Origin: Clostridia bacterium
Lineage (GTDB): Bacteria > Bacillota > Clostridia > Oscillospirales > CAG-272
Direction of reading: 5' to 3'
DNA length: 50,498 bases
Assembly: GCA_017508605.1 (NCBI GenBank)
Contig: JAFVYN010000069.1
Coordinates: 1-50,498 of the forward strand
A program made the position numbers and the translations under genes. Each line of letters begins with the position of its first letter. Positions within the stretch are counted from its first letter, which is position 1. The notes beneath the pieces are model-generated. The model had not been told where the DNA came from. It ran no database searches and saw nothing but the letters and a program-made list of their open reading frames with translations. Shown in pieces: positions 23,324-37,932 of this stretch.

Positions 23324-23352
23324 ATTATAACGGATTTCTGCTATTATGTCAA
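23324..23352 (-). promoter_or_regulatory. Consensus sigma-A promoter for the DUF3137-cdaA-cdaR... operon
   Basis: Minus strand has TTGACA (23352..23347), a 17-nt spacer, then TATAAT (23329..23324), within an AT-rich intergenic region. Confidence 0.7.
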
Positions 23353-24887: not shown

Positions 24888-24931
24888 ATCGGATGTTTGA
24901 CCAAAATTATAAAAAAGAAAGGCAGTCAATT

Positions 24932-25690
24932 ATGCTTTGGGGTTCCTTTGGGGCCGTTCATCTCATCAGCCTTCTCGCGGCAGTCGGCATGATGATCGGC
25001 ATTTATTTTATTCTGAAAAATAAAACGGAAAAAGTCCAACGTATCACCTTATTCTTGCTTTCTCTCAGCGGAATCGCCGCTATTGTTTTTAATCTCCTCA
25101 AATGGGATTCGCCGATCGAATATCTTCCCTTCCACATGTGCTCGATCACCGCGATGCTTTTACCTCTCGCTATTCTCATCAAGAGCCGCGCGCTCTCCAA
25201 TCTGCTTCTTCTCTGGCTGCTCGGCGCAGTGTTTGCCCTTGTCATGAATACCCAACAAGCAGGCTATGAGCTTCTCTCCGACACCTTCGCCTTCTATTTC
25301 TTCCCACACGTGTTCGAGGCAGGCATTCCGGTTCTCATGTTCAAATTGAAGCTTTGGAAAAAGGATTACCACGCCATTCCCACTACCATCGGACTAACCT
25401 TTGTGATCTACACCGCCGTCCATTTCATCAACGAGCTTCTCAATCGCTACGTTGCCATCAACCACATCGTCGATTACGCGGGAAATCCCATTTTTTTAAA
25501 CTACATGTACTCTCAGAAGCCTGTCGTTCCTTTTTTGGAACTGCTTTGGAAGATCGTTCCTCACGAATACTTTTATCTGCTTCTGGCTCTTCCCATCATC
25601 GCCCTGTATCTTTCAATCATCTACCTTCCTGAAATCGTCAGCGTTCTTCGTAAGAAGCACAAAGCCAAAAAAGCATTGCTTGCCGCATAA
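24932..25690 (+). CDS. YwaF/TIGR02206-family integral membrane protein
   Basis: It has seven or more TM segments and the LPFHMCSI motif. ATG 24932 is chosen because ATG 24893 lies only 6 nt after the -10 box. Confidence 0.65.
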   Translation: MLWGSFGAVHLISLLAAVGMMIGIYFILKNKTEKVQRITLFLLSLSGIAAIVFNLLKWDSPIEYLPFHMCSITAMLLPLAILIKSRALSNLLLLWLLGAVFALVMNTQQAGYELLSDTFAFYFFPHVFEAGIPVLMFKLKLWKKDYHAIPTTIGLTFVIYTAVHFINELLNRYVAINHIVDYAGNPIFLNYMYSQKPVVPFLELLWKIVPHEYFYLLLALPIIALYLSIIYLPEIVSVLRKKHKAKKALLAA

Positions 25691-25780: not shown

Positions 25781-26710
25781 TTACGAAAGAGCTGCCTCGA
25801 CCTTTTCGGCAATACCTTCAGGCGTAAGACCGAAGTATTCAAGAACAGCATCGGACGAACCCGAAAGACCGAAGGTGTCGTTGATACCGACTCTCGTCAG
25901 CTTGCAGGGATAGGTTTCGGTAATTGCCTCCGCAACGGCGGAACCGAGACCGCCGATCACAGAATGCTCTTCTACGGTAACGATGTTAGCGGTCTTCTTG
26001 GCATACTTGCCGATCAGCTCTCTGTCAAGGGGCTTGATGGTGTGAATGTTGATCACGGCGGCGTCAATGCCCTTTGCCTTCAGAAGCTCTCTTGCCTTCA
26101 GTGCCTTGGCGACCATGATACCGGTCGCGACAATGGTCACATCCTTGCCATCGGCAAGCACAACGCCCTTGCCAAGCTCGAACTTATAGCCCTCACCGTT
26201 GACAGCAGGGGTATTGGGGCGGGCAAGACGCAGGTAAACGGGACCCTTGACCTCAAGAAGAGCCGCCTCAGTTGCAAGTGCCGCTTCGATCGCGTCACAG
26301 GGCGAGATCACGGTCATATTGGGAACGACACGCATCAGCGCGATGTCCTCACAGCACTGGTGAGAGGCGCCGTCTTCACCGACCGACACACCCGCATGGG
26401 AAGCGCCGATCACAACGTGCAGATTGGGGTAAGCGATCGAGTTACGGATCTGCTCATAGCCTCTGCCCGCGGTAAACATCGCATAGGACGAGGCAACGGC
26501 GGGCGTACCCGTGGAGGCAATACCTGCCGCAACACCGATCATATTGGCTTCGGCAATGCCGCATTCAATATAGCGTTCGGGAAATTCTTTTTTGAAATAT
26601 TCTACCTTAACGGAATCGGCAAGGTCGGCGGACAAAACGTAAAAATCATGCTTTTTGCCAAGCTCGACGAGCGCGCGGCCGTAGGCTTCTCTGGTTGCGA
26701 TATCAGCCAT
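25781..26710 (-). CDS. Transketolase, C-terminal (pyrimidine-binding) subunit
   Basis: ATG 26710 follows a GGGGGAGA SD. MADIATREAYGRALVELG is typical. The ORF-track extension to 26818 overlaps the upstream subunit. Confidence 0.85.
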   Translation of the reverse strand: MADIATREAYGRALVELGKKHDFYVLSADLADSVKVEYFKKEFPERYIECGIAEANMIGVAAGIASTGTPAVASSYAMFTAGRGYEQIRNSIAYPNLHVVIGASHAGVSVGEDGASHQCCEDIALMRVVPNMTVISPCDAIEAALATEAALLEVKGPVYLRLARPNTPAVNGEGYKFELGKGVVLADGKDVTIVATGIMVAKALKARELLKAKGIDAAVINIHTIKPLDRELIGKYAKKTANIVTVEEHSVIGGLGSAVAEAITETYPCKLTRVGINDTFGLSGSSDAVLEYFGLTPEGIAEKVEAALS

Positions 26711-26723
26711 CGTATTCTCCCCC

Positions 26724-27554
26724 TCAGTTCTCTTCAATTTCTTTGCAGGCGGCGGCATACTGCTCGGCATTGGGCGCATTGCCGTGCCACTTGGGACTGC
26801 CTTCCATGAAGGAAACACCCTTACCCTTGACGGTATGGCAAATGATCGCCGTCGGACCTTCGTTTGCCTTGGCGTTCATCAGTGCAGACTCGATCTCTTC
26901 GAAATTATGACCGTCGATCTCGGCGGTGTGCCAACCGAATGCCTCGAATTTCTTCGCAATATCAAGCGTTCTCGAGATCTCGTCCGTTGCTGCCGAAAGC
27001 TGCACCTTGTTGAAGTCCACGAAAACGTAGAGATTCGACAGCTTATAGTGGTTGGCAAGCATCACAGCCTCCCAGATCTGACCTTCCTGAAGCTCACCGT
27101 CACCGACGATGCAGTATACGTTATACGCCCCCTTGGCAGCAATCGCCATGCCGCAAGCGGTGGAGAGACCCTGACCGAGAGAGCCTGTCGACATATCGAC
27201 ACCGGGAGTCTTCAGAGATGCGGGATGACCTTGAAGGATCGAACCGACGCGGCGAAGCGTCTTCATCTCCTCTTCGGGGAAAAAGCCCTTCTGACAAAGA
27301 GCCGCGTACAGTGCGGGAGCGGCATGACCCTTTGAAAGAACGAAACGGTCACGGTCAGGCTTGCCCGGTTCGTCTGCCGAAACATTCATCTCGGCAAAAT
27401 AGAGATAAGTGACGATCTCGGCGATCGAAAGGCTGCCGCCGGGATGACCGCTCTTAGCGGAAAAGATCCCTTCCAGGGAAAGAAGTCGGTTTTTCTTGGC
27501 TTTTTCTTTCAAAGCCATCAGCTGTTCGTGAGTCAAGAATGCCTCCTTGTGCAT
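26724..27554 (-). CDS. Transketolase, N-terminal (TPP-binding) subunit
   Basis: The motifs SGHPGGSLS, GSLGQGLS and GDGELQEG are present. A GGAGG SD precedes the start. Confidence 0.85.
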   Translation of the reverse strand: MHKEAFLTHEQLMALKEKAKKNRLLSLEGIFSAKSGHPGGSLSIAEIVTYLYFAEMNVSADEPGKPDRDRFVLSKGHAAPALYAALCQKGFFPEEEMKTLRRVGSILQGHPASLKTPGVDMSTGSLGQGLSTACGMAIAAKGAYNVYCIVGDGELQEGQIWEAVMLANHYKLSNLYVFVDFNKVQLSAATDEISRTLDIAKKFEAFGWHTAEIDGHNFEEIESALMNAKANEGPTAIICHTVKGKGVSFMEGSPKWHGNAPNAEQYAAACKEIEEN

Positions 27555-27716: not shown

Positions 27717-29246
27717 TTACTGATTTCTCATCATTTGGAAAAAGCTGTCGGCACGGACAAATTCGATCTTGTCGGAGCTTAACTCCTTAAGCGTTTTTTC
27801 AAGCTCTGCCACACGGTCGGGTGTCAGCTCGCCCCAGACCGAATACTGCGCCGCCACAAATTTCGGGGATTTCTGATCCCAGGCGTGATATTCACGGTGC
27901 AAAACCTTCGAAAGATGCTCGACCGTCGTCGAGTAGCAGGGCGTCAGCTGTTTGATCGGCATGCCGTTTTTCTCAATCGAGGAAATGCTCTCGCGATCGT
28001 CGGTGAAGAGCTGTACCGTAATGCCGTACAAATAGGGCGCGTTCTCGGCGTAGATCCGTCTTTGATTCTCGGTCATGTTATCCCAGACCGTCACGGCGCG
28101 AAGACCCGATTTTTCGAAATAACGGTTGGACAGCTTGACGTATTCGGCAAAATCCTCGTCATTTCTGACGTAGTTTTTCGCATCGATCTCTTCCTGCAGG
28201 GTGTTGACGGGCATGGCGTAACCGAAGCCCGAGGGTCCTGAAACAAAGCAGTCCTTGTCAGTGGAATGATCGTAATAATAATTGAGCATATCGGGAGAGA
28301 CCTCCGAAAGCGCGGGCGAGATCGTCCAGTTGATACACGCCTTGCCGCGGCTCTTTTCCTGCGCCTGCCAATACTTACGCATATAGCGCTGAATATACTG
28401 AATATTGTCACCGTCCGACACAAAGAGAGAGACGTACATCTTGTTTTCCACGGGCTTTACCTCGCCTTCGGGACGAAGACGGATGGGTTTATCCTGCGCG
28501 TAAACGGTGAAATTGCAGTAAAGGTCGCCGGGAACGGTGGAAAGACCGTATTCGGTGGTGGCGGTAATGCCGGAACGCTCCTCGGTATACCAACCGATCG
28601 CCACCGACTGACCGGGAGTCATATCGGCAAGGAAGCGGCGGTACACGTTTCTGTCATCCTCGCGGCGATTTTCAAGAAAGACCACGGCACAGCCCGCAGC
28701 CGCGATCAGATCGCGGATGTGAAAGAGCTCATCGGGATTCTGCGACACGATGATGCGGTGGGTATTCTTCTGCCAGTAATGATCGTACAGATAGGTATAG
28801 ATCTCGCGCGGCTCGGTCATGGTAAGACCCGAAAGATCCTCAAGAACGGGAAGCGTAACGCCATGATCCCGCAGAGCATCATAGACCGGACGGGTCATCG
28901 GGATGGCGTTCATGGTCGATGCCGCCGAACAGGCAAGATTGATATAATGCTTCGAGTGTGCCTCGCTGTACAAAACAACGCCCGATGCCTCATGGGCGTA
29001 CTTCTGCATCACGGTGTAATAATAGGTGCGGCGGTAGGATAGCCCCATCGTGCGAGGCCAGGTGTCACCACCCTGATCGCACATCATGTCAAGCAGTAAA
29101 ATGCGCACCGACGTGCGGTTGACGATTCCCTGAAGGGAAGAAAACGCCACCAATTCATCGCGTGTCATTGAAGGCGATTCGACCGCGTCCAGAACACCGC
29201 CGTCATAGGGAAAAGCAGGAAACATTCTATCGTTTGAAAAGTTCAT
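27717..29246 (-). CDS. GxGYxYP-family putative glycoside hydrolase
   Basis: 509 aa. It carries the signature GPSGFGYAMP, a variant of the GxGYxYP motif. A GGAGGA SD precedes the start. Confidence 0.6.
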   Translation of the reverse strand: MNFSNDRMFPAFPYDGGVLDAVESPSMTRDELVAFSSLQGIVNRTSVRILLLDMMCDQGGDTWPRTMGLSYRRTYYYTVMQKYAHEASGVVLYSEAHSKHYINLACSAASTMNAIPMTRPVYDALRDHGVTLPVLEDLSGLTMTEPREIYTYLYDHYWQKNTHRIIVSQNPDELFHIRDLIAAAGCAVVFLENRREDDRNVYRRFLADMTPGQSVAIGWYTEERSGITATTEYGLSTVPGDLYCNFTVYAQDKPIRLRPEGEVKPVENKMYVSLFVSDGDNIQYIQRYMRKYWQAQEKSRGKACINWTISPALSEVSPDMLNYYYDHSTDKDCFVSGPSGFGYAMPVNTLQEEIDAKNYVRNDEDFAEYVKLSNRYFEKSGLRAVTVWDNMTENQRRIYAENAPYLYGITVQLFTDDRESISSIEKNGMPIKQLTPCYSTTVEHLSKVLHREYHAWDQKSPKFVAAQYSVWGELTPDRVAELEKTLKELSSDKIEFVRADSFFQMMRNQ

Positions 29247-29404
29247 TGTAAGATCCTCCGAAAGCTTCTCATCGTTACAAATAACATCTCCCGAAGACCG
29301 CAGTCACGGGAATGCCCAATTGTTCATATTATACCCTACTCTACCCAATTTGTCAAGTAATCGCCAAAAACTCTTTTGTTTTTCTTCAGTTTCACCAAAA
29401 ATTC

Positions 29405-29433
29405 TTGACACATTTGTGGCAATATGCTATACT
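29405..29433 (+). promoter_or_regulatory. Near-consensus sigma-A promoter of the TIR-Sel1-TPR gene
   Basis: TTGACA, a 17-nt spacer, then TATACT preceded by TGC (extended -10). It lies 29 nt upstream of the ATG. Confidence 0.7.
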
Positions 29434-29461
29434 AACCATAAGAATACGATTGGAGGCAGTT

Positions 29462-32461
29462 ATGGCACTTTTCTGCAAAACACGTAATGATTCTTCGCCC
29501 CAAGGTAAGCCCAAGGTCTATTTTGCCTGCCATCCCGACGATTTCAAATACTTTGACACGATATCCGATGAGATCCTCACCGAGGTCAACTGCGCCGTTT
29601 TTTATCACACCCAACCCATCGAAAACGAGGAAGCGCATCTCCGCGACCTTTCAGAGATGAACCTAATCGTCATCCCCATCACCACGAAATTCCTCACCAC
29701 CCCCTCCGCCGCGCGCGATATTGAATTTCCCTTCTCCCAACAAAACCACATCCCCGTTCTCCCCTTGATGCAGGAACCGGGGCTTGTTGACGATTTCAAC
29801 AAGGTCTGCGGTAATGTTCAGTTTCTCGATAAGAGCGCCCGCGACGATACCGCCATCTCCTACGAGGAAAAGTTCAAAAATTTCCTCACCTCGATCCTCG
29901 TCGGAGACGAGCTTGCCGAAGAGATCCGCAATGCTTTTGACGCCTACATCTTCCTCTCTTACCGCAAGAAAGACCGCGCCTATGCGCAGGAGCTGATGCG
30001 CCTCATCCACGAAAACGATTTCTGCCGAGACGTCGCCATCTGGTACGATGAATTCCTCATCCCCGGCGAAAACTTCAATAATACCATTGCCGACGCCTTG
30101 ATGAAAAGCAAACTCTTCGCCCTTGCCATCACCCCCAACCTTCTGGAAAACCCCAACTACGTTATGACCACCGAATATCCGATGGCAAAGAACGCGGGCA
30201 AGGAGATCCTTGCCGCCGAGCTTGTTCCGACCGACAGAGCGGCGCTTGAAAACCACTATGCCGACATCCCCGAAAAGATCGATGCGCGTCATTCCCAAAC
30301 TCTTGCCAATGCCCTCATCAATGCCCTTGACAGCATCGTCCTTCGTAAAAACGATACCGATCCCCGACACAATTTCTTTATCGGTCTTGCGTACCTTTCA
30401 GGCATCGACGTTGAAAAGAACCCCGAGCGCGCACTCTCACTCATCACCTTCGCCGCCGAACATGACCTCCCCGAAGCGATTGAAAAGCTCGTCACTATGT
30501 ATAAGACGGGCGAAGGCGTGGAGCGTGACCTCGAAAAAGCCATCAAGTGGCAGGAAAAGCTCGTCGAGGTTTACCGTAAACAATTCGAGACAACCGATAC
30601 CGAGGAAAACGCCCTGCTCTATCTTGCCTCATTACTGACTCTCGGGGATTTTTATTTTAATTCATACCACTACGACAATGCCCGCACCGCCTATCAAACG
30701 GCACTTGACACCACGCTGTCGATTTCCGAACGACTCAACGACAACCTTTCTCTCTCTTATCAGGCACGCTGTTACGACGGCATGGGGCAAGTAGAAAAAA
30801 GTGTTGAAAATCTGAACCAAGCGATGCAGTATTACCACCATTCGCGCAAGATCCGCGAGACTATCCTTAAAGCCAATGACACTATTGAAGCAAGTTTCGA
30901 TTTATGGAATAGCCTGATTCATCAAGGCGAGCTTGAGACTGCTGCAGATAACGGCGCGGGAGCCTATGAAGTGTATTTGGACGCTGAATTGATCGCCGTC
31001 TCCATCCATACAAAAGAAGAAACGCCTGAATCGTCATACTGTCTTGCTGTTTCTTGGTATCAACTGGGTAATGTGCTGTCTTACGAAAATATCAATCGCG
31101 AATTCTCGCGTGTTCACAAAAAATATTTCAATTGTGAACTGGATACCCAAAACGTCTTCAGCGAAGTTGAAAGATACTACTTAGCCGCAAGTGGGTTATT
31201 GGAAAGTATTTTGATTCATTCCGATGACACGGAAACACAGTATAAACTATCAGCTGTAACGGGAGCCTTAGCCGATCTTTATCTTCGAGAATCCGATTTC
31301 ACAAATGCAACCGAGTGGGCAAACGATTCCCATACCATAGCGTTGATGCTTATCCAAGAAAACAATACGATTCAAGCTCGCCGTACACTCTTTTTCTCTC
31401 ATTGCCGTATGGGTCATTTGGCGCAAGCACAAGATCAGACCGAAAACGCCACGTACCATTTTCGTGAAGCGTTAACCATTGCTAACCGCTTTTGCGAAAC
31501 GTTACCTACCCTTGAATTCCGATACTATCTTGCCGATTGCTATGAAAATTTAGGCGATCTTGCTTTTCATGAGAAAGAACTGTCATCTGCTCACCAATAC
31601 TATCGCGAAGCACTCATGATTCGCGAGGCATTGATCCGCGAAACAGAGTCTTTCGAAGCACGAAAAGCGCTCAAGGAAAGCTACGAAAAACTAGAGAAAC
31701 TTGCCGAAGCCTTCGGCGATTATTTTCTTGCTTTTGAATTCTTTAGCATCCGGAGCTTCATTAAGCCGTTGAGCGGTCATCTGTTAAAACTAATCGCTGA
31801 TCTACATTATCTTAAAGCATGGAAAAACAGCGGGGAAAAGCCAACCTCTTATCCGAACTATTTATCCTCCAACAATAAAATGTATCTCAAAGAACTTGCC
31901 AAGCATCCTCACCTCTTATTGCAGCTGCAAGCCGCCGAGGCAAAGTATCTTGGAAATATTGACACCGCGCTTCGTTTGTATATGGATGCCAACCGTGCGC
32001 ATCAGGCTTTTTTCGATGAGTATGACGATGAAGAGCGGAATCAAGACCTCTATTTTGACTATTGGAACATAGAAGGGCTTGCATATGAGAACCAACGCTT
32101 CGCTATTGCCTTTACCTATTGCCGAAAAAGATTAGAGGCGCAAAAACGGATATTTGAAAAAGGCAAAAAAGAGGAAAACGTCAAAATCATTACCGACGCC
32201 TATGTAAGGCTTTTGGAATTAGCACCCGACACCGATACTTCACCCCTGCCTATTGCGGAAGAGTTCTTTTCTTTCGCCCAAAAGCTCTACTCCGAAAACA
32301 CATCTCTTTTGGCTCTTGACTGTATGACCGTCGCCACGGAAAAGCTCCTTAACCTTTACCGCGAGACCAAAGTGTCTTGTTTCAAAAAACTTGCACTGTC
32401 ACGAAAACTCCGCCGATATCGGCGTCTGAAGAAAAAAGCCGACAAAAAAGCAGCCACCTGA
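29462..32461 (+). CDS. Tandem TIR-like domain protein with Sel1-like and TPR-like repeats (999 aa)
   Basis: ATG 29462 follows a GGAGG SD. TIR_2-like segment: YIFLSYRKKDRAYAQELMRLIHE..DVAIWYDEFLIPGENFNNTIADALMKSKLFALAITPNLLENPNYVMTTEY. An upstream degenerate copy reads KVYFACHPDDF...LIVIPITTKFL...DIEF. A Sel1-like segment reads GIDVEKNPERALSLITFAAEHDLPEAIEKLVTMYKTGEGVERDLEKAIKWQEK. About 630 aa of helical repeats follow. No P-loop was seen. Confidence 0.8.
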   Translation: MALFCKTRNDSSPQGKPKVYFACHPDDFKYFDTISDEILTEVNCAVFYHTQPIENEEAHLRDLSEMNLIVIPITTKFLTTPSAARDIEFPFSQQNHIPVLPLMQEPGLVDDFNKVCGNVQFLDKSARDDTAISYEEKFKNFLTSILVGDELAEEIRNAFDAYIFLSYRKKDRAYAQELMRLIHENDFCRDVAIWYDEFLIPGENFNNTIADALMKSKLFALAITPNLLENPNYVMTTEYPMAKNAGKEILAAELVPTDRAALENHYADIPEKIDARHSQTLANALINALDSIVLRKNDTDPRHNFFIGLAYLSGIDVEKNPERALSLITFAAEHDLPEAIEKLVTMYKTGEGVERDLEKAIKWQEKLVEVYRKQFETTDTEENALLYLASLLTLGDFYFNSYHYDNARTAYQTALDTTLSISERLNDNLSLSYQARCYDGMGQVEKSVENLNQAMQYYHHSRKIRETILKANDTIEASFDLWNSLIHQGELETAADNGAGAYEVYLDAELIAVSIHTKEETPESSYCLAVSWYQLGNVLSYENINREFSRVHKKYFNCELDTQNVFSEVERYYLAASGLLESILIHSDDTETQYKLSAVTGALADLYLRESDFTNATEWANDSHTIALMLIQENNTIQARRTLFFSHCRMGHLAQAQDQTENATYHFREALTIANRFCETLPTLEFRYYLADCYENLGDLAFHEKELSSAHQYYREALMIREALIRETESFEARKALKESYEKLEKLAEAFGDYFLAFEFFSIRSFIKPLSGHLLKLIADLHYLKAWKNSGEKPTSYPNYLSSNNKMYLKELAKHPHLLLQLQAAEAKYLGNIDTALRLYMDANRAHQAFFDEYDDEERNQDLYFDYWNIEGLAYENQRFAIAFTYCRKRLEAQKRIFEKGKKEENVKIITDAYVRLLELAPDTDTSPLPIAEEFFSFAQKLYSENTSLLALDCMTVATEKLLNLYRETKVSCFKKLALSRKLRRYRRLKKKADKKAAT

Positions 32462-32466
32462 CAACA

Positions 32467-32495
32467 AAAAGCCCGACCGTGCGGTCGGGCTTTTT
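32467..32495. terminator. Bidirectional terminator between the convergent TIR gene and rubrerythrin
   Basis: AAAAGCCCGACC gtgc GGTCGGGCTTTTT. Confidence 0.85.
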
Positions 32496-32508
32496 GTTAT
32501 GTGAAATC

Positions 32509-33042
32509 TTAATAGTTTTCTTTTCTGACTTCGAAGTAGCTCTGGGGATGAGCGCAGACAGGGCAAATAACGGGAGCCTTCTTGCCCATAACGAGGTGAC
32601 CGCAGTTGCGGCATTCCCACATGGTCTCTTCAGCCTTTTCAAAAACAGCCTGCATATCTACGTTGTTAAGAAGTGCGCGATATCTTTCCTCGTGCGTCTT
32701 TTCGATAGCGGCAACGGCTCTGAACTGATATGCGATCTGCTTGAAGCCTTCTTCTTCAGCTTCCTTAGCGAAGGTATCGTACATATCGGTCCATTCATAA
32801 TTTTCGCCTTCAGCGGCAGCCTTCAGGTTTTCAGCGGTGGTGCCGATGCCCTGAAGATGCTTGAACCACAACTTTGCGTGTTCCATTTCGTTGTTTGCGG
32901 TCTGGAGGAAGATAGCGGCGATCTGTTCGTAGCCTTCCTTCTTGGCAACGCTTGCAAAATAGGTGTACTTGTTTCTCGCCTGAGATTCACCTGCAAATGC
33001 GGTAGCGAGATTCTGTTCTGTCTTAGAGCCTTTGAGTTCCAT
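32509..33042 (-). CDS. rbr: Rubrerythrin
   Basis: ATG 33042 follows an AAAGGAG SD. A ferritin-like domain ([30 protein letters not shown]) is followed by C-terminal CRNCG...CPVC. Confidence 0.9.
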
Positions 33043-33079
33043 AATTCGTTCTCCTTTTGTAATAAAAAAATAATAATAG

Positions 33080-33454
33080 TTACTGTTGAGCCGCACGGCA
33101 TTTCGCACAGCAAGCATTCACCGACAGGTCATACTGAAAATCGTCCGAGCCAACCGCCTCTTTCAGGCATTCCGTCAAGCCCTTGACCTCAAGATCGAGA
33201 ACGCCGCCGCATTTGGGGCAGATCATGTGCTCGTGGGGCGAAACGGTTTTATCAAAACGGTCAGGTCCGTCGGGAACACGGATCTTGCGGATTCTGCCAT
33301 CCTGTGCCATTTCGTTCAGATTGCGATAGACGGTACCGAGCGCGATCTTGGGCATTGCCTTGACCGCCTCACGGTAGACCTCCTCCGCCGTCATATGTCC
33401 GAATTCTTGAATGATGGCGAGAATCAGCTTACACTGTTGGGTTAAATACTTCAT
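33080..33454 (-). CDS. perR: Fur-family peroxide-responsive repressor (PerR-like)
   Basis: It has a winged HTH ([15 protein letters not shown]), [10 protein letters not shown], and C-terminal CAKC. It lies upstream of rubrerythrin. Confidence 0.8.
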
Positions 33455-33490: not shown

Positions 33491-33519
33491 ATTATAACAG
33501 AGAAAACCCCTCTTGTCAA
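33491..33519 (-). promoter_or_regulatory. Consensus sigma-A promoter of perR-rbr; its -35 element lies in the loop of the upstream terminator
   Basis: Minus strand has TTGACA (33519..33514), a 17-nt spacer, then TATAAT (33496..33491) preceded by TGT. Confidence 0.65.
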
Positions 33520-33545: not shown

Positions 33546-34850
33546 TTATCCCACCGTCGAGGGTATCTTCTGCTCCTTTTCACAAATCTCCTCAGAAGAT
33601 GCGTCAAGCTCTTCCCTTGCCACCGAAAGCATCAGCTTAACGCGATTCTCTTGGTTGACACGTGTAGCGCCCGGATCGTAATCAATGGCAACGATATTGG
33701 CATTCGGAAACCGCTCACGGATCGAGCGTGTCATCCCCTTGCCCACGATGTGATTGGGCAGGCATCCGAAGGGCTGAACACAGATAATGTTGTGATACCC
33801 CTCCTCGCAAAGCGCCGCCATTTCAGCGGTGAGAAGCCAGCCCTCACCCATTTTACAGCCAAGTCCGATCGTCTCTTCACCCCACCGTCTCACAGCCTTA
33901 TGGGAAAGGGGTGCCCGATACCGTCCGCTCTTTTCAAGGGCGTGCCGCATCATGCCTTCATATTCCTCCAAGAAACGGCGCAGGAAAAGATTCACAAGCT
34001 TTGCGATCCTTTTGCCGCCGTAAAGACGGATATCCTCGATGTTGTTATCAAAAATATACTGAATAAAGCCGAGAAGCCCGGGGACGTTCACCTCACAGCC
34101 CTCGCCGTGAAGAAAGTCCTCCAGATGATTGTTCGCAAGGGGGGAATATTTGACATAGATCTCCCCGACGATACCGACCTTCACTTTTGGTTCCTTGTGA
34201 AGCGAAAGTGAGTCAAAATCCTTTGCCATCAGGGAAAGGTTCTTCCGTATCGCGAAAAACGAAGAGTCCTTGCCCTGCTTCAGGCGCTCCGCAAGATAGT
34301 CGACCCATTTGCGGCAAAGTCCGTCAGCCGCACCCTTTTCGGTTTCATAAGGTCTTGCCTGATTCACAAATGCCGTCAGGGTATCGCCGTAAATGACCCC
34401 CGCCATCGCGAGAAAAATAAACTTAAGATCAATTCGGAAGCCCTCGTTCTTTTCAAGACCCGTGGGATTCAGAGAGATCACGGGCACCTGAGAAAAGCCC
34501 GCCTTCGCCAGTGCCTTTCGCAATAGGTGGATGTAATTGGAGGCACGGCAGCCGCCGCCCGTCTGCGTCAGCATCAGCGCGGTGCGGTCGGGATCGTATT
34601 TTCCGCTCTTCAGTGCCGCGATAAACTGCCCGATCACCAGAAGCGCGGGATAGCAGGTGTCGTTATGTACGTATTTCAGACCTTCGTCCACAATATCCCT
34701 GCCGTCGGTCGTCAGAAGCTCCACATTATACCCAAGACCGCGCATCGCTCCCTGCAGGATCTCGAAATGCAGATTCAGCATGTTCGGCAAGAGGATCTTG
34801 TAGGTCTTTCGCATGTCTTCGGTGAATTCTATTCTACGGATCTCTTCCAT
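33546..34850 (-). CDS. 2-hydroxyacyl-CoA dehydratase-family protein (partner of the activase fusion), function unknown
   Basis: 434 aa. The start overlaps the upstream stop by 1 nt, and a GGAGGAG SD precedes it. The family assignment comes from recalled similarity to HgdB/YjiM-like proteins. Confidence 0.6.
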   Translation of the reverse strand: MEEIRRIEFTEDMRKTYKILLPNMLNLHFEILQGAMRGLGYNVELLTTDGRDIVDEGLKYVHNDTCYPALLVIGQFIAALKSGKYDPDRTALMLTQTGGGCRASNYIHLLRKALAKAGFSQVPVISLNPTGLEKNEGFRIDLKFIFLAMAGVIYGDTLTAFVNQARPYETEKGAADGLCRKWVDYLAERLKQGKDSSFFAIRKNLSLMAKDFDSLSLHKEPKVKVGIVGEIYVKYSPLANNHLEDFLHGEGCEVNVPGLLGFIQYIFDNNIEDIRLYGGKRIAKLVNLFLRRFLEEYEGMMRHALEKSGRYRAPLSHKAVRRWGEETIGLGCKMGEGWLLTAEMAALCEEGYHNIICVQPFGCLPNHIVGKGMTRSIRERFPNANIVAIDYDPGATRVNQENRVKLMLSVAREELDASSEEICEKEQKIPSTVG

Positions 34851-37795
34851 CAGTTCTCCTCCTTTTGTCCGAGGGTAGCAAACAGACTGCGAAGACGGAT
34901 CTTCACAGCGCCGAGTCCCGTGATCTCGTCGATCTTGATCTGGGTATAGATCTTGCCCGCGCTCTCCAAAATGCGGCGCACCTCATCGGTCGTAATGGCA
35001 TCCACCCCGCATCCGAAGGAAACGAGCTGAACGAAATTGATATCAAGATCCCGTGTATCTGCCACAAACCGTGCAGCCCCATACAGTCTTGCATGATAGG
35101 TCCACTGATTGAGAACGGCAAGGGGCATGCGCTCAAAATGGTGTCCGAGCATATCCTCCGGGATCACCACGATGCCACGGTCACGGATAAAGGTATCAAT
35201 GCCGTGATTGATCTCACGGTCGAGATGGTAGGGTCTGCCCGCAAGCACGATCACGGGAAGCTTTCTCTCTCTCGCGACGGTAAGCAGCTCGTCTCCCCGC
35301 GTGCGAAGGCATGCCATATAGCGGTAATATTCGGTATATGCCGTCTCGACCGCCGCCTTGACTTCTTTTCGGCTGAAATGCCCGAATTCCCTTTCCAGCA
35401 TCTCATGAAAGTGCTTGGTAAACTCCTTGGGACGGTGGATCCCGAAATCGTCGCTGATGAGTCTTGCTCCCTTGAGGGACATATTATGGGCGATCACACG
35501 GGGATAGTAGGCAACGACGGGGCAGTTATAATGATTGTCCGAAAGCCCCTCGTTCATATTATAGGTCAGCGAGGGATAAAACACCGTCTTTACCCCCGCC
35601 TCGATCAGCGCCTCGATGTGTCCGTGAACGAGCTTGGCGGGATAACAGACCGTATCCGAGGGAATACTGCTCTGCCCCTTGAGATAGAGCTTGCGGCTCG
35701 AGGGCGGAGACAGCTGTATGCCGAAACCGAGCGTGCGAAAGAGCGTATGCCAGAAGGGCAAAAGCTCAAACATTCCAAGTACCACGGGAATGCCAACCGT
35801 TTCCCTGACACCTTCGCGGGGGCCGTAAGCCGAAAGCATCTCCCGTTTATCGTCATAGCCGCTGAAGGTCTCTTTGACCACACGCTGTTCGGTGGGCTTT
35901 TCACACTGATTGCCCCCGATATATCGCTTGCCGTCCCCAAAAGTGTTCACCGTCAGCTTGCAGCGATTGGTACAGCCCTTGCAGGTGATCGCCTTCACGT
36001 CATGCGTGAAACAGGAAAGCGCCTCCCGATCAAGAATGGTGCTTTTCGTCTTCTTCTCCCGCTCGGCAGATGCCTTGGCGTAAAGGGCGGCACCCAAAGC
36101 GCCCATCTTACCCGATACCGAAGGCCGCAGGACCTCCTCGCCGATCTCCATTTCAAAGGCACGAAGCACGGCGTCATTCAGGAACGTACCGCCCTGCACC
36201 ACAACGTGATGACCGAGGGGCTTGCCCTCAGCCTTGCGGATGACCTTGTACAGCGCGTTTTTGACCACGCTGATCGAAAGCCCCGCCGCGATGTTTTCGA
36301 CCGATGCCCCATCCTTTTGCGCCTGCTTGACCGAGGAATTCATAAAGACCGTACAGCGGGAGCCAAGGTCAACGGGCTTGTCGGCAAAGAGCGCGAGTTG
36401 ACTGAATTCCTCAGCCGTATAGCCGAGAGCGGCGGCAAAGGTCTCAAGAAACGAGCCGCAACCCGAGGAACAGGCTTCGTTCAGAAAAATATTATCGATC
36501 ACACCGTTTTTGATCTCAAAGCATTTGATGTCCTGACCGCCGATATCAATAATAAAATCGACCATAGGCTCAAATGCCTTGGCGGCGGTAAAATGCGCGA
36601 CGGTCTCCACCACACCGTAATCGAGGTGAAAGGCGCTCTTGACGATCTCCTCGCCATAGCCTGTGGAGGCGGCGGCAACGATCTTCACATCGGGATAGCG
36701 TTCGTATACCTCGGAAAGAAACGCCCTGACGGCAGGAATGGGATTGCCGCTGTTGGTATGATAGCGTGAGAAGACGATCTCACCATCTTCGTTCGTCAGA
36801 ACCGCCTTGATCGTCGTCGAGCCGGAATCAATGCCGAGATACGCGCGCTTTGATGCGCTCAGTTCGGCAGTCTTCTCTTCCCTTGTGTGACGGCGCCTGA
36901 AGGCTTCGTAGTCTTCGGTGCTTTGAAAGAGCGGCTCACATCCGATATAGTCGCCCGCCGCTTTGTGTTCTCTTGCCGCCTTCTCAAGCGCCAAAAGGGA
37001 GACGGGCTGTTTTTCATCGGCGAGATATGCCGCCCCGAGTGCCACGAAATACAGTGACATATCGGGAAAGACGCCCTTGGTTTTCAGCGTGCGGTCAAAT
37101 GCCTCGCGAAGAGAGGATAAAAAGGTCAAAGGCCCGCCGAGATAGACGACCTTACCCTCGATCTTACGCCCCTGCGCAAGACCCGATACCGTCTGATTGA
37201 CCACAGCCGCCATAATGCTTGCCGCGATATCCTCTTTTCTCGCGCCCTGATTGATGAGGGGCTGAATGTCGCTCTTGGCAAAGACGCCGCAGCGCGAGGC
37301 AATGCTGTATTCCTTGGTATATGCCGCCGCCAGCGTATTCATCGCGTCGGGTGTCACTCCGAGCAGGGTCGCCATCTGATCGATAAACGATCCCGTACCG
37401 CCTGCGCAGCTTCCGTTCATTCTGACCTCAAAGGCACCCGACAGAAAGAGGATCTTCGCGTCCTCACCGCCAAGCTCGATCACGGCATCGGCATCGGGGA
37501 TGCGGCGTGAAAGCGCTACCTTGGTAGCATAGACCTCCTGACAGAACGTAAGTCCCATCTCCTTGGCAAAGCCCATACCCCCCGATCCCGAGATCGCAAG
37601 CGCCGCCGTTTCAGCCTCAGGGAGTTCAAGACGGATCTCCTTCAGCATAGCGGCAATCTTTTCGGCAATGGCGGCGTAATGTCTTATATAACGGTGGAAG
37701 AGGATCTTTCCCTCTTCGTCAAGCACTACCGCTTTCAGCGTGGTCGATCCGACGTCAAGTCCGATCTTAAACATAATCTCACTTCTTTTCTCCAT
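34850..37795 (-). CDS. Double BcrA/BadF/HgdC-type ATPase (CoA-enzyme activase) fused to a C-terminal dehydratase-related domain
   Basis: Two acetate/sugar-kinase-fold modules each start with a G-[LI]-D-x-GSTT motif (IGLDVGSTTLKAVV and LGIDSGSTTIKAVL). A Cys-rich linker (CKGCTNRCKL) follows. The start is either ATG 37795 (AAGGGAG SD) or ATG 37774. Confidence 0.75.
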   Translation of the reverse strand: MEKRSEIMFKIGLDVGSTTLKAVVLDEEGKILFHRYIRHYAAIAEKIAAMLKEIRLELPEAETAALAISGSGGMGFAKEMGLTFCQEVYATKVALSRRIPDADAVIELGGEDAKILFLSGAFEVRMNGSCAGGTGSFIDQMATLLGVTPDAMNTLAAAYTKEYSIASRCGVFAKSDIQPLINQGARKEDIAASIMAAVVNQTVSGLAQGRKIEGKVVYLGGPLTFLSSLREAFDRTLKTKGVFPDMSLYFVALGAAYLADEKQPVSLLALEKAAREHKAAGDYIGCEPLFQSTEDYEAFRRRHTREEKTAELSASKRAYLGIDSGSTTIKAVLTNEDGEIVFSRYHTNSGNPIPAVRAFLSEVYERYPDVKIVAAASTGYGEEIVKSAFHLDYGVVETVAHFTAAKAFEPMVDFIIDIGGQDIKCFEIKNGVIDNIFLNEACSSGCGSFLETFAAALGYTAEEFSQLALFADKPVDLGSRCTVFMNSSVKQAQKDGASVENIAAGLSISVVKNALYKVIRKAEGKPLGHHVVVQGGTFLNDAVLRAFEMEIGEEVLRPSVSGKMGALGAALYAKASAEREKKTKSTILDREALSCFTHDVKAITCKGCTNRCKLTVNTFGDGKRYIGGNQCEKPTEQRVVKETFSGYDDKREMLSAYGPREGVRETVGIPVVLGMFELLPFWHTLFRTLGFGIQLSPPSSRKLYLKGQSSIPSDTVCYPAKLVHGHIEALIEAGVKTVFYPSLTYNMNEGLSDNHYNCPVVAYYPRVIAHNMSLKGARLISDDFGIHRPKEFTKHFHEMLEREFGHFSRKEVKAAVETAYTEYYRYMACLRTRGDELLTVARERKLPVIVLAGRPYHLDREINHGIDTFIRDRGIVVIPEDMLGHHFERMPLAVLNQWTYHARLYGAARFVADTRDLDINFVQLVSFGCGVDAITTDEVRRILESAGKIYTQIKIDEITGLGAVKIRLRSLFATLGQKEEN

Positions 37796-37804
37796 AATCA
37801 AAAG

Positions 37805-37839
37805 CTCCCTTGCCGTAACCTGAAGATACAACAAGGGAG
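37805..37839 (-). promoter_or_regulatory. 5'-UTR hairpin that sequesters the SD of the activase gene
   Basis: In the minus-strand RNA, CUCCCUUG (37839..37832) pairs perfectly with CAAGGGAG (37812..37805). The latter is the SD for ATG 37795. The loop is 19 nt. Confidence 0.45.
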
Positions 37840-37852
37840 ATGCTATGACTCT

Positions 37853-37881
37853 ATTATAACATAAAAACAGAAAGAAAGCAA
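37853..37881 (-). promoter_or_regulatory. Putative sigma-A promoter of the activase operon
   Basis: Minus strand has TTGCTT (37881..37876), a 17-nt spacer, then TATAAT (37858..37853) preceded by TGT. Confidence 0.55.
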
Positions 37882-37932
37882 ACCCCAAATCCAACAAATC
37901 GAGTCAAATTTTGTTGAATCTTTTTTTCACAA

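What the first reader, a model, noticed from the sequence alone, without database searches (positions are those of the whole stretch)
29405..32495. Stand-alone tandem-TIR / Sel1 / TPR protein with its own consensus promoter and terminator
**Seen in sequence**
- A 999-aa ORF is transcribed against the surrounding minus-strand genes.
- It has a TTGACA-17-TATACT promoter and a private bidirectional terminator, so it is monocistronic.
- Residues ~160-265 match the TIR_2 pattern.
- Residues ~15-125 look like a second, degenerate TIR/flavodoxin-like module.
- Residues ~303-365 are Sel1-like.
- The remaining ~630 residues are TPR-like helical repeats with visibly lower GC.
- I saw no Walker A motif, so this is not a STAND/NLR ATPase.

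**Established knowledge**
Bacterial TIR domains degrade NAD+ or make nucleotide signals in Thoeris, CBASS, Avs/NLR-like and short-Argonaute systems. Some are secreted host-immunity mimics.

**Inference**
A repeat-sensor plus TIR-effector protein without an NTPase or partner gene could be a single-gene abortive-infection system. Alternatively it could be a host-interaction factor. I cannot match this architecture to a named defence system.
Basis: partly seen in the sequence, partly recalled or inferred. Interest (0 to 1): 0.75.

Follow-up and report, generated by a model that had tools for sequence, protein, structure and literature searches.

The report
Tandem-TIR protein with hypervariable repeat sensor
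This stand-alone gene encodes a cytoplasmic protein with a strongly conserved double-TIR "head" that looks able to cleave NAD+ and a repeat "tail" that differs greatly even between close relatives, which suggests an uncharacterised immune-type sensor family in gut Clostridia, though it does not sit among known defence genes.

Summary
A 999-aa monocistronic gene (29462-32461, +) has a near-consensus promoter, an RBS and a strong bidirectional terminator.

**Architecture:** a degenerate TIR-like domain, a TIR_2 domain, two Sel1 repeats, then about 625 aa of TPR-like helical repeats. There is no NTPase, signal peptide or TM segment.

**Conservation:**
- The two N-terminal domains are homologous (hhalign 97%, E 2.5e-11).
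- The second domain keeps an invariant Glu (E238, 120/120 homologues), which aligns with the SARM1 catalytic Glu.
- The first domain's equivalent Glu is often lost.
- The head defines a family of at least 1,626 clusters at 50% identity, mostly from Clostridia MAGs. Copies are often multiple or tandem per genome.

**Head versus tail:**
- In syntenic orthologues the head is 87-99% identical (dN/dS 0.005-0.07), but the repeat part is only 38-60% identical.
- In one pair with 96%-identical downstream flank, the repeat-coding DNA has no detectable nucleotide similarity.
- This window's tail has only two relatives among 5.8 billion proteins.
- A few members carry LRR or MORN arrays.

**Against a defence role:** flanks are housekeeping genes, there is no conserved partner gene and PADLOC finds no system.

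**Best reading (about 0.5):** a single-chain sensor plus TIR NADase immune receptor. I rate it a new variant of a known kind.

The parts
29405..29433 (+). sigma-70-type promoter TTGACA-17-TATACT with a TG extension
   Evidence: scores it 11/12. One search finds 9 such sites in the window against 0.14 expected. The -10 hexamer ends 28 nt before the ATG.
29452..29456 (+). ribosome-binding site GGAGG, 5 nt upstream of ATG 29462
   Evidence: Sequence read.
29462..32461 (+). CDS, 999 aa plus stop (tandem TIR - Sel1 - TPR protein)
   Evidence: for the ORF. fix the start from the homologues' N-termini.
29468..29905 (+). N-terminal degenerate TIR-like domain with a helical linker (residues ~3-148). 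The equivalent Glu, E88, is not conserved.
   Evidence: hhalign against the family's TIR_2 profile gives Prob 97%, E 2.5e-11. AF2 pLDDT is 91. Top Foldseek hits are RPS4, SARM1, AbTir, SPARTA and BtpA TIRs. E88 is E in 79, D in 19 and hydrophobic (V/L/A) in 20 of 120 homologues. dN/dS is 0.04-0.06.
29936..30331 (+). TIR_2 domain (residues ~159-290), predicted catalytic
   Evidence: Pfam TIR_2 scores 35.5 bits, above the gathering score of 28. Best PDB profile hit is AbTir NADase. AF2 shows a beta-alpha fold. dN/dS is 0.005-0.045.
30173..30175 (+). codon of E238, the putative catalytic glutamate (motif NYxxxxEYPxA)
   Evidence: Invariant in 120/120 homologues.
30359..30571 (+). two Sel1 repeats (residues ~300-370), part of the conserved head
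   Evidence: Pfam Sel1 scores 36.3 bits, above the gathering score of 30.7. PDB Sel1-repeat proteins match residues 303-369, E 6e-23. G308 and A310 are invariant. dN/dS is about 0.06-0.07.
30587..32386 (+). hypervariable TPR-like helical repeat region (residues ~376-975), the putative sensor, with low GC3
   Evidence: Pfam TPR_10, TPR_2, TPR_12 and related models hit here. Only P0002 and P0003 (43-44% identity) match it among 5.8e9 proteins. GC3 is 0.46 here against 0.67 in the head. The equivalent region is replaced in syntenic orthologues.
32381..32458 (+). strongly basic C-terminal tail (14 K/R in the last 30 residues)
   Evidence: It is shared with the two closest orthologues, P0002 and P0003.
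32463..32498 (.). bidirectional intrinsic terminator (8-bp GC-rich stem, GUGC loop, flanking A-run and U-run)
   Evidence: Sequence. One search gives dG -27.9 kcal/mol, z -6.4, with 0 of 200 shuffles folding as well.
29328..29356 (-). divergent perfect-consensus promoter of the upstream GxGYxYP-family gene. It marks the 5' limit of the TIR gene's regulatory region.
   Evidence: 12/12 match.

Best explanation
The gene encodes a cytoplasmic, single-chain sensor-effector of the immune-receptor type.

**Proposed parts**
- The C-terminal TPR-like solenoid is a fast-diversifying ligand-binding surface. The ligand is most likely a phage or mobile-element protein.
- The conserved head is the effector. 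It comprises a degenerate TIR, a catalytic TIR and two Sel1 repeats.

**Proposed mechanism (inferred)**
1. At rest, the degenerate N-terminal TIR and the Sel1 pair hold the catalytic TIR in an inactive arrangement.
2. Ligand binding to the repeats causes a rearrangement or oligomerisation that forms the TIR-TIR interface needed for activity.
3. The active site built around E238 cleaves NAD+.
4. This either depletes NAD+ or makes an ADP-ribose-derived product, which arrests the infected cell.

**Shown here:** the domain composition, the homology of the two TIRs, the invariance of E238, purifying selection on the head, hypervariability or replacement of the tail, and the absence of an NTPase, a partner gene and secretion signals.

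**Inferred:** NADase activity, ligand identity, the activation mechanism and the defence phenotype.
For: **Catalytic TIR**
- TIR_2 scores above the Pfam gathering score.
- The closest solved relative by profile search is the NADase AbTir.
- E238 is invariant in 120/120 homologues and aligns with the SARM1 catalytic Glu.
- SYR, WYDE and PGE motifs are also invariant.
- TIR dN/dS is 0.005-0.045.

**Second TIR**
- hhalign gives 97% probability, E 2.5e-11.
- Foldseek top hits are TIRs.
- Its equivalent Glu is lost or changed to Asp in about a third of members.
- It is still under purifying selection, dN/dS 0.04-0.06.

**Hypervariable tail**
- In syntenic orthologues the head is 87-99% identical and the tail 38-60%.
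- In L025 versus L031 the tail-coding 1.5 kb has no nucleotide similarity, although the downstream flank is 96% identical.
- Tandem paralogues have heads 86-91% identical and tails 46-58%.
- This window's tail has 2 relatives among 5.8e9 proteins, while the head is in at least 1,626 clusters at 50% identity.
- Some members carry LRR or MORN arrays instead of, or in addition to, TPRs.

**Mobile-element and defence contexts**
- L024 is next to GmrSD and TraG.
- L027 is next to a prophage integrase and L028 next to McrBC.

**Precedent**
- A single-protein TIR+TPR system (TIR-II) protects E. coli from phages and needs its TIR active site (PMC11350192).
Against: - There is no defence-island enrichment. 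118 flanking ORFs from 12 unbiased loci gave only two UvrD-type helicase look-alikes in PADLOC, and otherwise housekeeping Pfam families.
- The gene is stably syntenic in core-genome contexts across species.
- It is absent from 50,697 phage and 72,556 plasmid records.
- Only 2 loci were found in 2.9 million IMG/VR contigs.
- PADLOC finds no system for the protein itself.
- Repeat proteins can diverge fast under relaxed constraint alone.
- A near-consensus promoter implies constitutive expression of a potentially toxic enzyme.
- No biochemical or phenotypic data exist.
- The Glu alignment to AbTir by HMM is in a different register.
Confidence: 0.5

Rival explanations
1. The protein is a housekeeping or physiological NAD+/nucleotide-signalling regulator. 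It would use its TPR array to sense an endogenous protein or peptide, for example in sporulation, germination, stress or quorum signalling as in RRNPP-type TPR receptors. It would then tune NAD+ or produce an ADPR-derived signal. It would not be an anti-phage system.
For: - The gene is stably syntenic in the core genome next to housekeeping genes such as Spo0A, AddAB, transketolase and rubrerythrin/Fur.
- There is no defence enrichment.
- It is absent from phages and plasmids.
- It has a strong constitutive-type promoter.
- Some copies lie within 10 kb of NAD or nucleoside metabolism genes: NAPRTase in L029, NAD synthase in L019 and three IU_nuc_hydro genes in L030.
Against: - An endogenous ligand would not explain complete replacement of the sensor region between near-identical strains.
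- It would not explain tails that are essentially unique.
- It would not explain tandem paralogue arrays with diverged tails.
- It would not explain swaps to LRR or MORN arrays.
Confidence: 0.2
2. The protein is a non-enzymatic scaffold. The TIRs would mediate only protein-protein assembly, as in animal TLR adaptors, and the repeats would recruit partners. There would be no NAD+ chemistry.
For: - The N-terminal TIR has lost the Glu in many members.
- Sel1 and TPR are classic protein-interaction modules.
- No enzyme assay exists.
Against: - E238 and the surrounding NYxxxxEYPxA motif are invariant in 120/120 homologues.
- TIR dN/dS falls as low as 0.005.
- The nearest solved relatives by sequence are the NADases AbTir and SARM1/TIR-1.
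- From established knowledge, bacterial TIRs that retain this Glu have as a rule proved to be NAD+-cleaving enzymes.
Confidence: 0.1
3. The protein is a host-interaction factor. It would be a secreted TIR mimic or Sel1-repeat protein that interferes with animal TLR signalling or host NAD+, like BtpA/TcpB, TirS or Legionella Sel1 proteins.
For: - The source organisms live in animal guts (record titles).
- Foldseek hits include BtpA/TcpB TIRs.
- Sel1 repeats occur in host-interaction proteins.
Against: - There is no signal peptide or TM segment. The maximum 19-residue hydropathy is 1.02.
- No secretion-system genes are adjacent.
- Non-pathogenic anaerobes carry multiple tandem paralogues.
- The hypervariability lies in the intracellular-type TPR_12/TPR_10 arrays that are typical of bacterial cytoplasmic sensors.
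Confidence: 0.05
4. The protein is the signal-generating half of a dispersed Thoeris-like system. The TIR would make a cADPR-isomer signal that activates an effector encoded elsewhere in the genome.
For: - There are weak ThsB and SAVED-TIR PADLOC hits, E 0.003-0.012.
- From established knowledge, TIRs in Thoeris are signal generators.
- Gut-bacterial TIR domains make v-cADPR isomers (PMC9092222).
Against: - No ThsA-like, SLOG, Macro or SAVED gene lies in the 50-kb window or in any of the inspected flanks.
- No gene is consistently linked to the family.
Confidence: 0.1

Closest known systems
E. coli 'TIR-II' single-protein TIR+TPR anti-phage system (Nat Commun 2024, PMC11350192)
   Same: - TIR and TPR are in one polypeptide.
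- It can act as a single gene.
- Its TIR active-site residue is required for defence.
- It is described as the most widespread of the newly identified E. coli TIR systems.
   Different: - Homology was not tested, because no sequence was available here.
- About 30% of TIR-II systems carry an ATPase, and TIR-II occurs in Caudoviricetes. This family's head has no tblastn hit in 50,697 phage genomes and never carries an NTPase.
- A tandem-TIR plus Sel1 head is not described for TIR-II.
DSR2 (defence-associated sirtuin 2; PMC11087589, PMC11290490, PMC11850899)
   Same: - It is a single large protein with an N-terminal NADase and a C-terminal alpha-solenoid that binds a phage protein directly.
- It has no NTPase.
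- It acts by abortive NAD+ depletion.
- It is the best mechanistic analogue.
   Different: - Its effector is SIR2, not TIR, so there is no homology in the head.
- DSR2 has no tandem effector domains or Sel1 repeats.
Avs / bacterial TIR-NLR (STAND) receptors
   Same: - An N-terminal effector, sometimes a TIR, is joined to C-terminal TPR sensor arrays of the TPR_10/TPR_12/MalT type.
- The sensors are diversified.
   Different: - The defining STAND NTPase module is absent here. There is no Walker A motif and no NB-ARC, NACHT or AAA Pfam hit.
Thoeris ThsB and the BcTir/BcTpr two-gene system (bioRxiv 10.1101/2023.05.26.542521)
   Same: - Both use a bacterial TIR with a catalytic Glu.
- Both associate a TIR with a TPR protein.
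   Different: - Those systems are multi-gene operons with a separate effector or TPR protein.
- Here there is a single gene with no linked partner.
- The ThsB model hit is only E 0.003.
AbTir / SARM1-type TIR NADases
   Same: - They are the closest solved TIRs by profile search and by fold.
- They share the SYR motif, the BB-loop Gly and the catalytic Glu.
   Different: - Those proteins have a single TIR, activated by coiled-coil or SAM/ARM-mediated assembly.
- Here a degenerate second TIR is fused in cis and a repeat sensor follows.

Membership tests
TIR domain superfamily (Pfam TIR_2, NADase-type) | Sequence match to the TIR_2 profile above its curated threshold | tested here: met
   Residues 163-250 score 35.5 bits against a gathering score of 28. 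All 21 long homologues scanned also match TIR_2.
TIR domain superfamily (Pfam TIR_2, NADase-type) | Flavodoxin-like beta-alpha fold similar to solved TIR domains | tested here: met
   AF2 models have pLDDT 87 and 91. Foldseek hits include RPS4, SARM1, AbTir, SPARTA, BtpA, MyD88 and TLR TIRs with TM 0.5-0.67. These are interleaved with other flavodoxin-like folds.
TIR domain superfamily (Pfam TIR_2, NADase-type) | Conserved catalytic glutamate in the alpha-C region | tested here: met
   - E238 is invariant in 120/120 homologues.
- It aligns to the Glu of SARM1 'WVHKE' by hhalign.
- The HMM alignment to AbTir is shifted by four residues.
- In the N-terminal TIR-like domain the equivalent E88 is not conserved.
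TIR domain superfamily (Pfam TIR_2, NADase-type) | NAD+ hydrolase or cyclase activity | not testable with these tools
   This needs an enzyme assay.
Thoeris | ThsB-type TIR encoded next to a ThsA-type effector (SIR2/SLOG, Macro, TM and so on) | tested here: not met
   - The PADLOC ThsB hit is only E 0.0033.
- The neighbours are a GxGYxYP glycosidase-like gene, transketolase, rubrerythrin and Fur.
- No such effector lies in any inspected homologue flank.
Avs / STAND (NLR-like) receptors | Central STAND NTPase with Walker A and B motifs | tested here: not met
   There is no G....GK[ST] motif. No NB-ARC, NACHT or AAA Pfam hit occurs in the query or in 21 long homologues.
Avs / STAND (NLR-like) receptors | C-terminal repeat sensor (TPR and similar) | tested here: met
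   TPR_10, TPR_12, TPR_2 and TPR_MalT hits fall in residues 390-734.
E. coli TIR-II (single-protein TIR+TPR defence) | TIR and TPR domains in one protein acting alone | tested here: met
   The gene is monocistronic. No partner gene is conserved across loci.
E. coli TIR-II (single-protein TIR+TPR defence) | Sequence homology to the characterised TIR-II protein | not testable with these tools
   - The accessions are in a supplement that is not held.
- Indirectly, the head has no tblastn hit in the phage or plasmid collections.
E. coli TIR-II (single-protein TIR+TPR defence) | Protection against phage that depends on the TIR active site | not testable with these tools
   This needs an experiment.
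Sel1-like repeat (SLR) proteins | Sel1 profile match above threshold | tested here: met
   Sel1 scores 36.3 bits against a gathering score of 30.7, in 2 stretches. PDB Sel1-repeat proteins match residues 303-369 with E 6e-23.
Secreted bacterial TIR virulence factors (BtpA/TcpB, TcpC, TirS) | Export signal or association with a secretion or mobile virulence locus | tested here: not met
   There is no hydrophobic N-terminus or TM segment, with maximum KD 1.02. No secretion genes are nearby.
Defence-island resident systems (operational criterion) | Homologues enriched next to known defence genes | tested here: not met
   - 118 flanking ORFs from 12 GTDB loci gave only 2 UvrD-like helicases matching GajB and RTasHel models, plus mad3.
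- Of about 8 further independent contexts, only L024 (GmrSD, TraG) is defence- or MGE-like.
- The two IMG/VR loci are next to an integrase and McrBC, but that collection is biased.
- The sample is small and there was no formal background.

The most novel reading that the evidence does not exclude
Gut Clostridia may carry an NTPase-free, chromosomally anchored repertoire of 'NLR-like' receptors.

- A near-frozen tandem-TIR/Sel1 effector head would be recombined with hypervariable repeat cassettes (TPR, occasionally LRR or MORN) at fixed genomic sites and in tandem arrays.
- This would be a germline-encoded receptor-diversification system. A built-in pseudo-TIR would replace the oligomerising NTPase as the switch for NADase activation.
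Probability: 0.35. Interest if true: 0.75.

Novelty: new variant of a known kind. Interest (0 to 1): 0.6.

Why it matters
**Possible significance**
- If the reading is right, this is a large family that may act as single-chain immune receptors. It has at least 1,626 clusters at 50% identity and no characterisation that I could find.
- It occurs in Lachnospiraceae, Oscillospiraceae and other gut Clostridia. Defence biology is barely explored in these groups, and current defence finders report nothing for this protein.

**Two features are mechanistically new relative to known TIR systems**
- A cis-fused degenerate TIR sits next to the catalytic one. This could be an intramolecular version of the TIR-TIR interface that switches NADase activity on.
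- The family has no NTPase or partner gene, yet its sensor region is exchanged wholesale between near-identical genomes.

**Cautionary point**
- An immune-looking, fast-diversifying receptor can sit stably among housekeeping genes.
- Searches based on defence islands would therefore miss it.

Tried and rejected
- **Foldseek on the two-domain model.** Tandem-Rossmann proteins such as Der/EngA GTPases dominated the hits and the result was uninformative. I re-ran the N-terminal domain alone.
- **HMM alignment to AbTir.** It placed the AbTir catalytic Glu opposite V234 rather than E238. I judged this a local register shift. The spacing from E238 to the next strand (11 residues...GK.I.P) matches SARM1 in hhalign, and E238 is the invariant residue.
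- **PADLOC on the protein.** It gave only sub-threshold ThsB, TPR and SAVED-TIR hits, so no system was assigned.
- **NCBIfam.** It gave only spurious low-score MotX and MamA matches to the Sel1 and TPR parts.
- **Phage and plasmid tblastn.** There were no hits.
- **Literature.** I looked for tandem bacterial TIRs, TIR-Sel1 and TIR-TPR and found no description of this family. The TIR-II supplement was not available.
- **DGR-type diversification.** I considered it, but saw no reverse transcriptase near any locus in the Pfam tables.
- **Amino-acid composition as the cause of the low G+C.** I rejected this because the drop is in GC3.
- **Upstream in-frame ATG at 29312 (1049 aa).** I rejected it because it lies upstream of the promoter and the homologues start at the 29462-equivalent Met.

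Full report
**1. The observation**

The + strand reading frame is open from 29312 to 32461. The real start is ATG 29462, which gives 999 aa. All 120 best homologues begin at the equivalent Met with the conserved N-terminus M..L.YKTRG..SPQGKPRVYF. A GGAGG sits 5 nt upstream.

A TTGACA-17-TATACT promoter with a TG extension lies at 29405-29433. It is one of nine near-perfect sigma-70 sites in the window, against 0.14 expected by chance. A perfect-consensus promoter fires the other way, at 29356-29328, for the upstream GxGYxYP-family gene.

Just after the stop codon (32459-32461), a GC-rich hairpin flanked by an A-run and a U-run spans 32463-32498. It folds at -27.9 kcal/mol with z = -6.4. It separates the gene from the convergent rubrerythrin gene.

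**2. Anatomy of the protein**

Pfam places TIR_2 at residues 163-250 (35.5 bits, gathering score 28) and Sel1 repeats from 306 (36.3 bits, gathering score 30.7). Several TPR models hit residues 390-734. PDB sequence search finds only Sel1-repeat proteins, matching residues 300-370. There is no Walker A motif, no NTPase domain, no hydrophobic N-terminus and no TM segment.

The first ~150 residues have no Pfam hit, but three results identify them as a divergent TIR:
- A family profile of residues 10-150 aligns with the family profile of the TIR_2 domain at 97% probability, E 2.5e-11, over 87 columns.
- An AlphaFold2 model of residues 1-149 has pLDDT 91.
- Its best matches in the PDB are TIRs (RPS4, SARM1, AbTir, SPARTA TIR-APAZ, BtpA). 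These are mixed with other flavodoxin-like folds at TM about 0.5-0.6.

The protein is therefore a true tandem-TIR protein.

**3. Which TIR looks catalytic**

In the second domain, E238 is invariant in 120/120 homologues. So are S166-Y167-R168, W194-Y195-D196-E197, P201-G202 and N232-Y233. Profile-sequence alignment with the human SARM1 TIR puts E238 on the Glu of 'WVHKE' (E642) and Y233 on W638.

The best solved relative by profile search is the NADase AbTir (E 0.0013). In that local alignment the AbTir Glu is offset by four residues, which I attribute to AbTir's longer alpha-C helix.

In the N-terminal TIR the equivalent residue, E88, is Glu in 79, Asp in 19 and hydrophobic (V/L/A) in 20 of 120 homologues. 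That domain is therefore probably non-catalytic. It is still under purifying selection (dN/dS 0.04-0.06).

**4. The family**

The 290-residue head alone finds 1,626 clusters at 50% identity with E <= 1e-30, among 1.84 billion representatives. It is almost always at the N-terminus of proteins of 423-1903 aa. A word-indexed search of 5.8 billion proteins gave more than 2,400 hits. The named ones are 'TIR domain-containing protein' or 'tetratricopeptide repeat protein' from Clostridia and Ruminococcaceae MAGs.

Species-representative genomes that carry it include Lachnospiraceae, Acetatifactor, Mediterraneibacter, Acutalibacteraceae and the cultured Gemmiger formicilis.

Across the top 120 homologues the first 300 residues are 50-83% identical to the query, while overall identity is about 40%. 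The usual tail is an array of 42-residue TPR_10/TPR_12 units. The 21 longest members carry no enzymatic or NTPase domains. One (P0135) has a BspA-type LRR array and no strong TPR hit (none at E <= 1e-12), and one (P0185) adds MORN repeats.

**5. A conserved head and a hypervariable tail**

This is the main new finding. Three related genomes carry the gene at the same site, BioY - gene - SH3/C39 peptidase - AddAB.

| Region | Amino-acid identity across the trio | dN/dS |
|---|---|---|
| N-terminal TIR | 87-93% | 0.04-0.06 |
| Catalytic TIR | 94-99% | 0.005-0.045 |
| Sel1 pair | 81-87% | 0.06-0.07 |
| Repeat tail | 38-60% | not computed |

dS is about 0.65-2.2, so it is partly saturated.

At the DNA level, L025 and L031 compare as follows:
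- The upstream flank is 84-88% identical and the downstream flank 96%.
- The first 1.4 kb of the gene is 82.5% identical.
- The next ~1.5 kb, the tail, has no detectable similarity.
- Similarity resumes 27 nt after the stop codon.

Other comparisons show the same pattern:
- The tail of P0088 is no closer to its syntenic orthologue (38%) than to unrelated family members (34-36%).
- Three tandem paralogues in L023 have heads 86-91% identical and tails 46-58%.
- The head of the window's own gene is 78-82% identical to P0004, P0010 and P0002. Its 624-residue tail matches only P0002 and P0003 (43-44%) among 5.8 billion proteins.
- P0003 is the syntenic orthologue (transketolase - gene - rubrerythrin - Fur - DegV). 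It is 51% identical overall, while most compared neighbours are 64-92% identical and one, DUF3137, is 50%.

GC3 is 0.46 in the tail, 0.67 in the head and 0.53-0.69 (mostly 0.60-0.69) in neighbouring genes. The drop recurs in most family members examined. Amino-acid composition therefore does not explain it. It fits a region with a different evolutionary regime.

**6. Genomic context**

The window around the gene is ordinary metabolism: RecJ, CdaA/YbbR, ClpP, PTAC, transketolase, a GxGYxYP glycosidase-like gene, rubrerythrin, Fur, a 2-hydroxyacyl-CoA-dehydratase-like pair, DegV, AdhE and a rhamnosidase-like gene.

Of roughly eight independent homologue contexts with gene calls, only L024 is defence- or MGE-like, with GmrSD, large helicases and TraG.

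I also scanned 118 flanking ORFs from 12 unbiased GTDB loci. PADLOC matched only two UvrD-type helicases (GajB and RTasHel models) plus mad3. Pfam showed housekeeping families.

The head has no tblastn hit in 50,697 phage or 72,556 plasmid records. Only two loci turned up in 2.9 million IMG/VR contigs. One lies immediately after a Tn916-type integrase at a prophage end, and one lies downstream of McrBC.

No gene is consistently linked to the family.

**7. Interpretation**

The head is under strong purifying selection. The repeat tail is wholesale variable and is occasionally exchanged for a different repeat class. Copies occur as tandem paralogues. This combination is what one expects of a sensor-effector receptor in an arms race, and it is hard to reconcile with sensing a fixed endogenous ligand.

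With no NTPase and no partner gene, the closest mechanistic analogue is DSR2: an NADase head plus a solenoid that binds a phage protein directly (PMC11087589, PMC11290490). The closest in domain composition is the E. coli single-protein TIR+TPR system TIR-II, which protects against phages and needs its TIR active-site residue (PMC11350192).

Established work on SARM1, AbTir, TIR-STING, SPARTA and plant TNLs shows that TIR NADases become active when TIR-TIR contacts reorganise the BB loop. The BB-loop region here has the lowest confidence in the model (pLDDT 64-68 for residues 190-210). From this I infer that the cis-fused degenerate TIR acts as a built-in partner or brake for the catalytic TIR, and that ligand binding to the tail releases or assembles it.

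I put about 0.5 on this sensor plus NADase immune reading. The rivals are:
- a physiological NAD+-signalling regulator (0.2);
- a dispersed Thoeris-like signal generator (0.1);
- a non-enzymatic scaffold (0.1);
- a host-interaction factor (0.05).

**8. Novelty and verdict**

TIR+TPR fusions are known from domain surveys, and one such system is validated in E. coli. This is therefore not a new category.

I found no description of this tandem-TIR/Sel1 head, of its family, or of the head/tail evolutionary contrast. PADLOC has no model for it. I rate it a new variant of a known kind, with interest 0.6.

Noticed in passing
window 361-47029 (nine sites, e.g. 2073-2101, 23324-23352, 29328-29356, 33491-33519): Nine TTGACA-N17-TATAAT sites lie within 1 mismatch of consensus, four of them perfect, against 0.14 expected by chance. 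The organism evidently uses textbook sigma-A promoters, which makes transcription units in this window easy to map.
   Followed up: partly
window 30587-32458 versus 29462-30571; also L019, L022, L024, L025, L026: GC3 drops sharply inside the gene at the Sel1/TPR junction, from 0.67 to 0.46 in the window. A smaller or larger drop occurs in most homologues examined. The cause is unexplained. It could be relaxed codon selection, AT-biased mutation in a fast-evolving segment or imported cassettes.
   Followed up: partly
window 32381-32458 (residues 974-999); homologues P0019, P0071, P0123, P0164, P0211: The query and its two closest orthologues end in a very basic tail (KLRRYRRLKKK). Five of 258 homologues end in GFFKKLFGKK-like amphipathic basic motifs, against 0.11 expected. 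These resemble MinD-type membrane-targeting helices, so they could be a membrane- or nucleic-acid-binding tail.
   Followed up: partly
L030 9036-14360; L029 15894-17345; L019 18069-18803: In L030 the homologue is embedded among three inosine-uridine nucleoside hydrolase paralogues. In L029 a nicotinate phosphoribosyltransferase lies within a few kb of the homologue, and in L019 an NAD synthase does. This may be coincidence or a link to NAD and nucleoside salvage.
   Followed up: no
L017 10001-10841: The head of this Lachnospiraceae copy is split over three reading frames, so it is probably a frameshifted pseudogene.
   Followed up: no
P0121 (1903 aa): This homologue has two separate TIR_2 matches and three matches to the head. 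It is either a fusion of two complete units or two tandem genes called as one.
   Followed up: no
window 27717-29246 and 33546-37897, compared with L019: The GxGYxYP-family gene and the 2-hydroxyacyl-CoA-dehydratase-like pair with its BcrAD/BadFG-type activator (1015 aa) are absent from the otherwise syntenic L019 locus, while the TIR gene is retained. In this region the metabolic genes are the variable ones.
   Followed up: partly
window 32509-33117 and 33080-33454; 25781-26818 and 26724-27554: The mechanical ORFs for rubrerythrin and Fur overlap, as do those for the two transketolase halves. Orthologues in L019 match only from residue 26 of rubrerythrin and residue 37 of transketolase-C. The true starts are therefore probably internal ATGs and the overlaps are artefacts.
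   Followed up: partly
L027 8040-12037; L028 23-12403: These are the only two IMG/VR hits. In L027 the homologue lies directly downstream of a Tn916-type integrase at the end of a siphovirus-like prophage that carries an endolysin and DUF859. In L028 it lies downstream of McrBC and a 1325-aa M4-peptidase protein.
   Followed up: partly
window 24893-25690: A bacterial protein matches the TMEM164 family (Pfam PF14808, E 6e-17), which is mostly known from eukaryotes.
   Followed up: no
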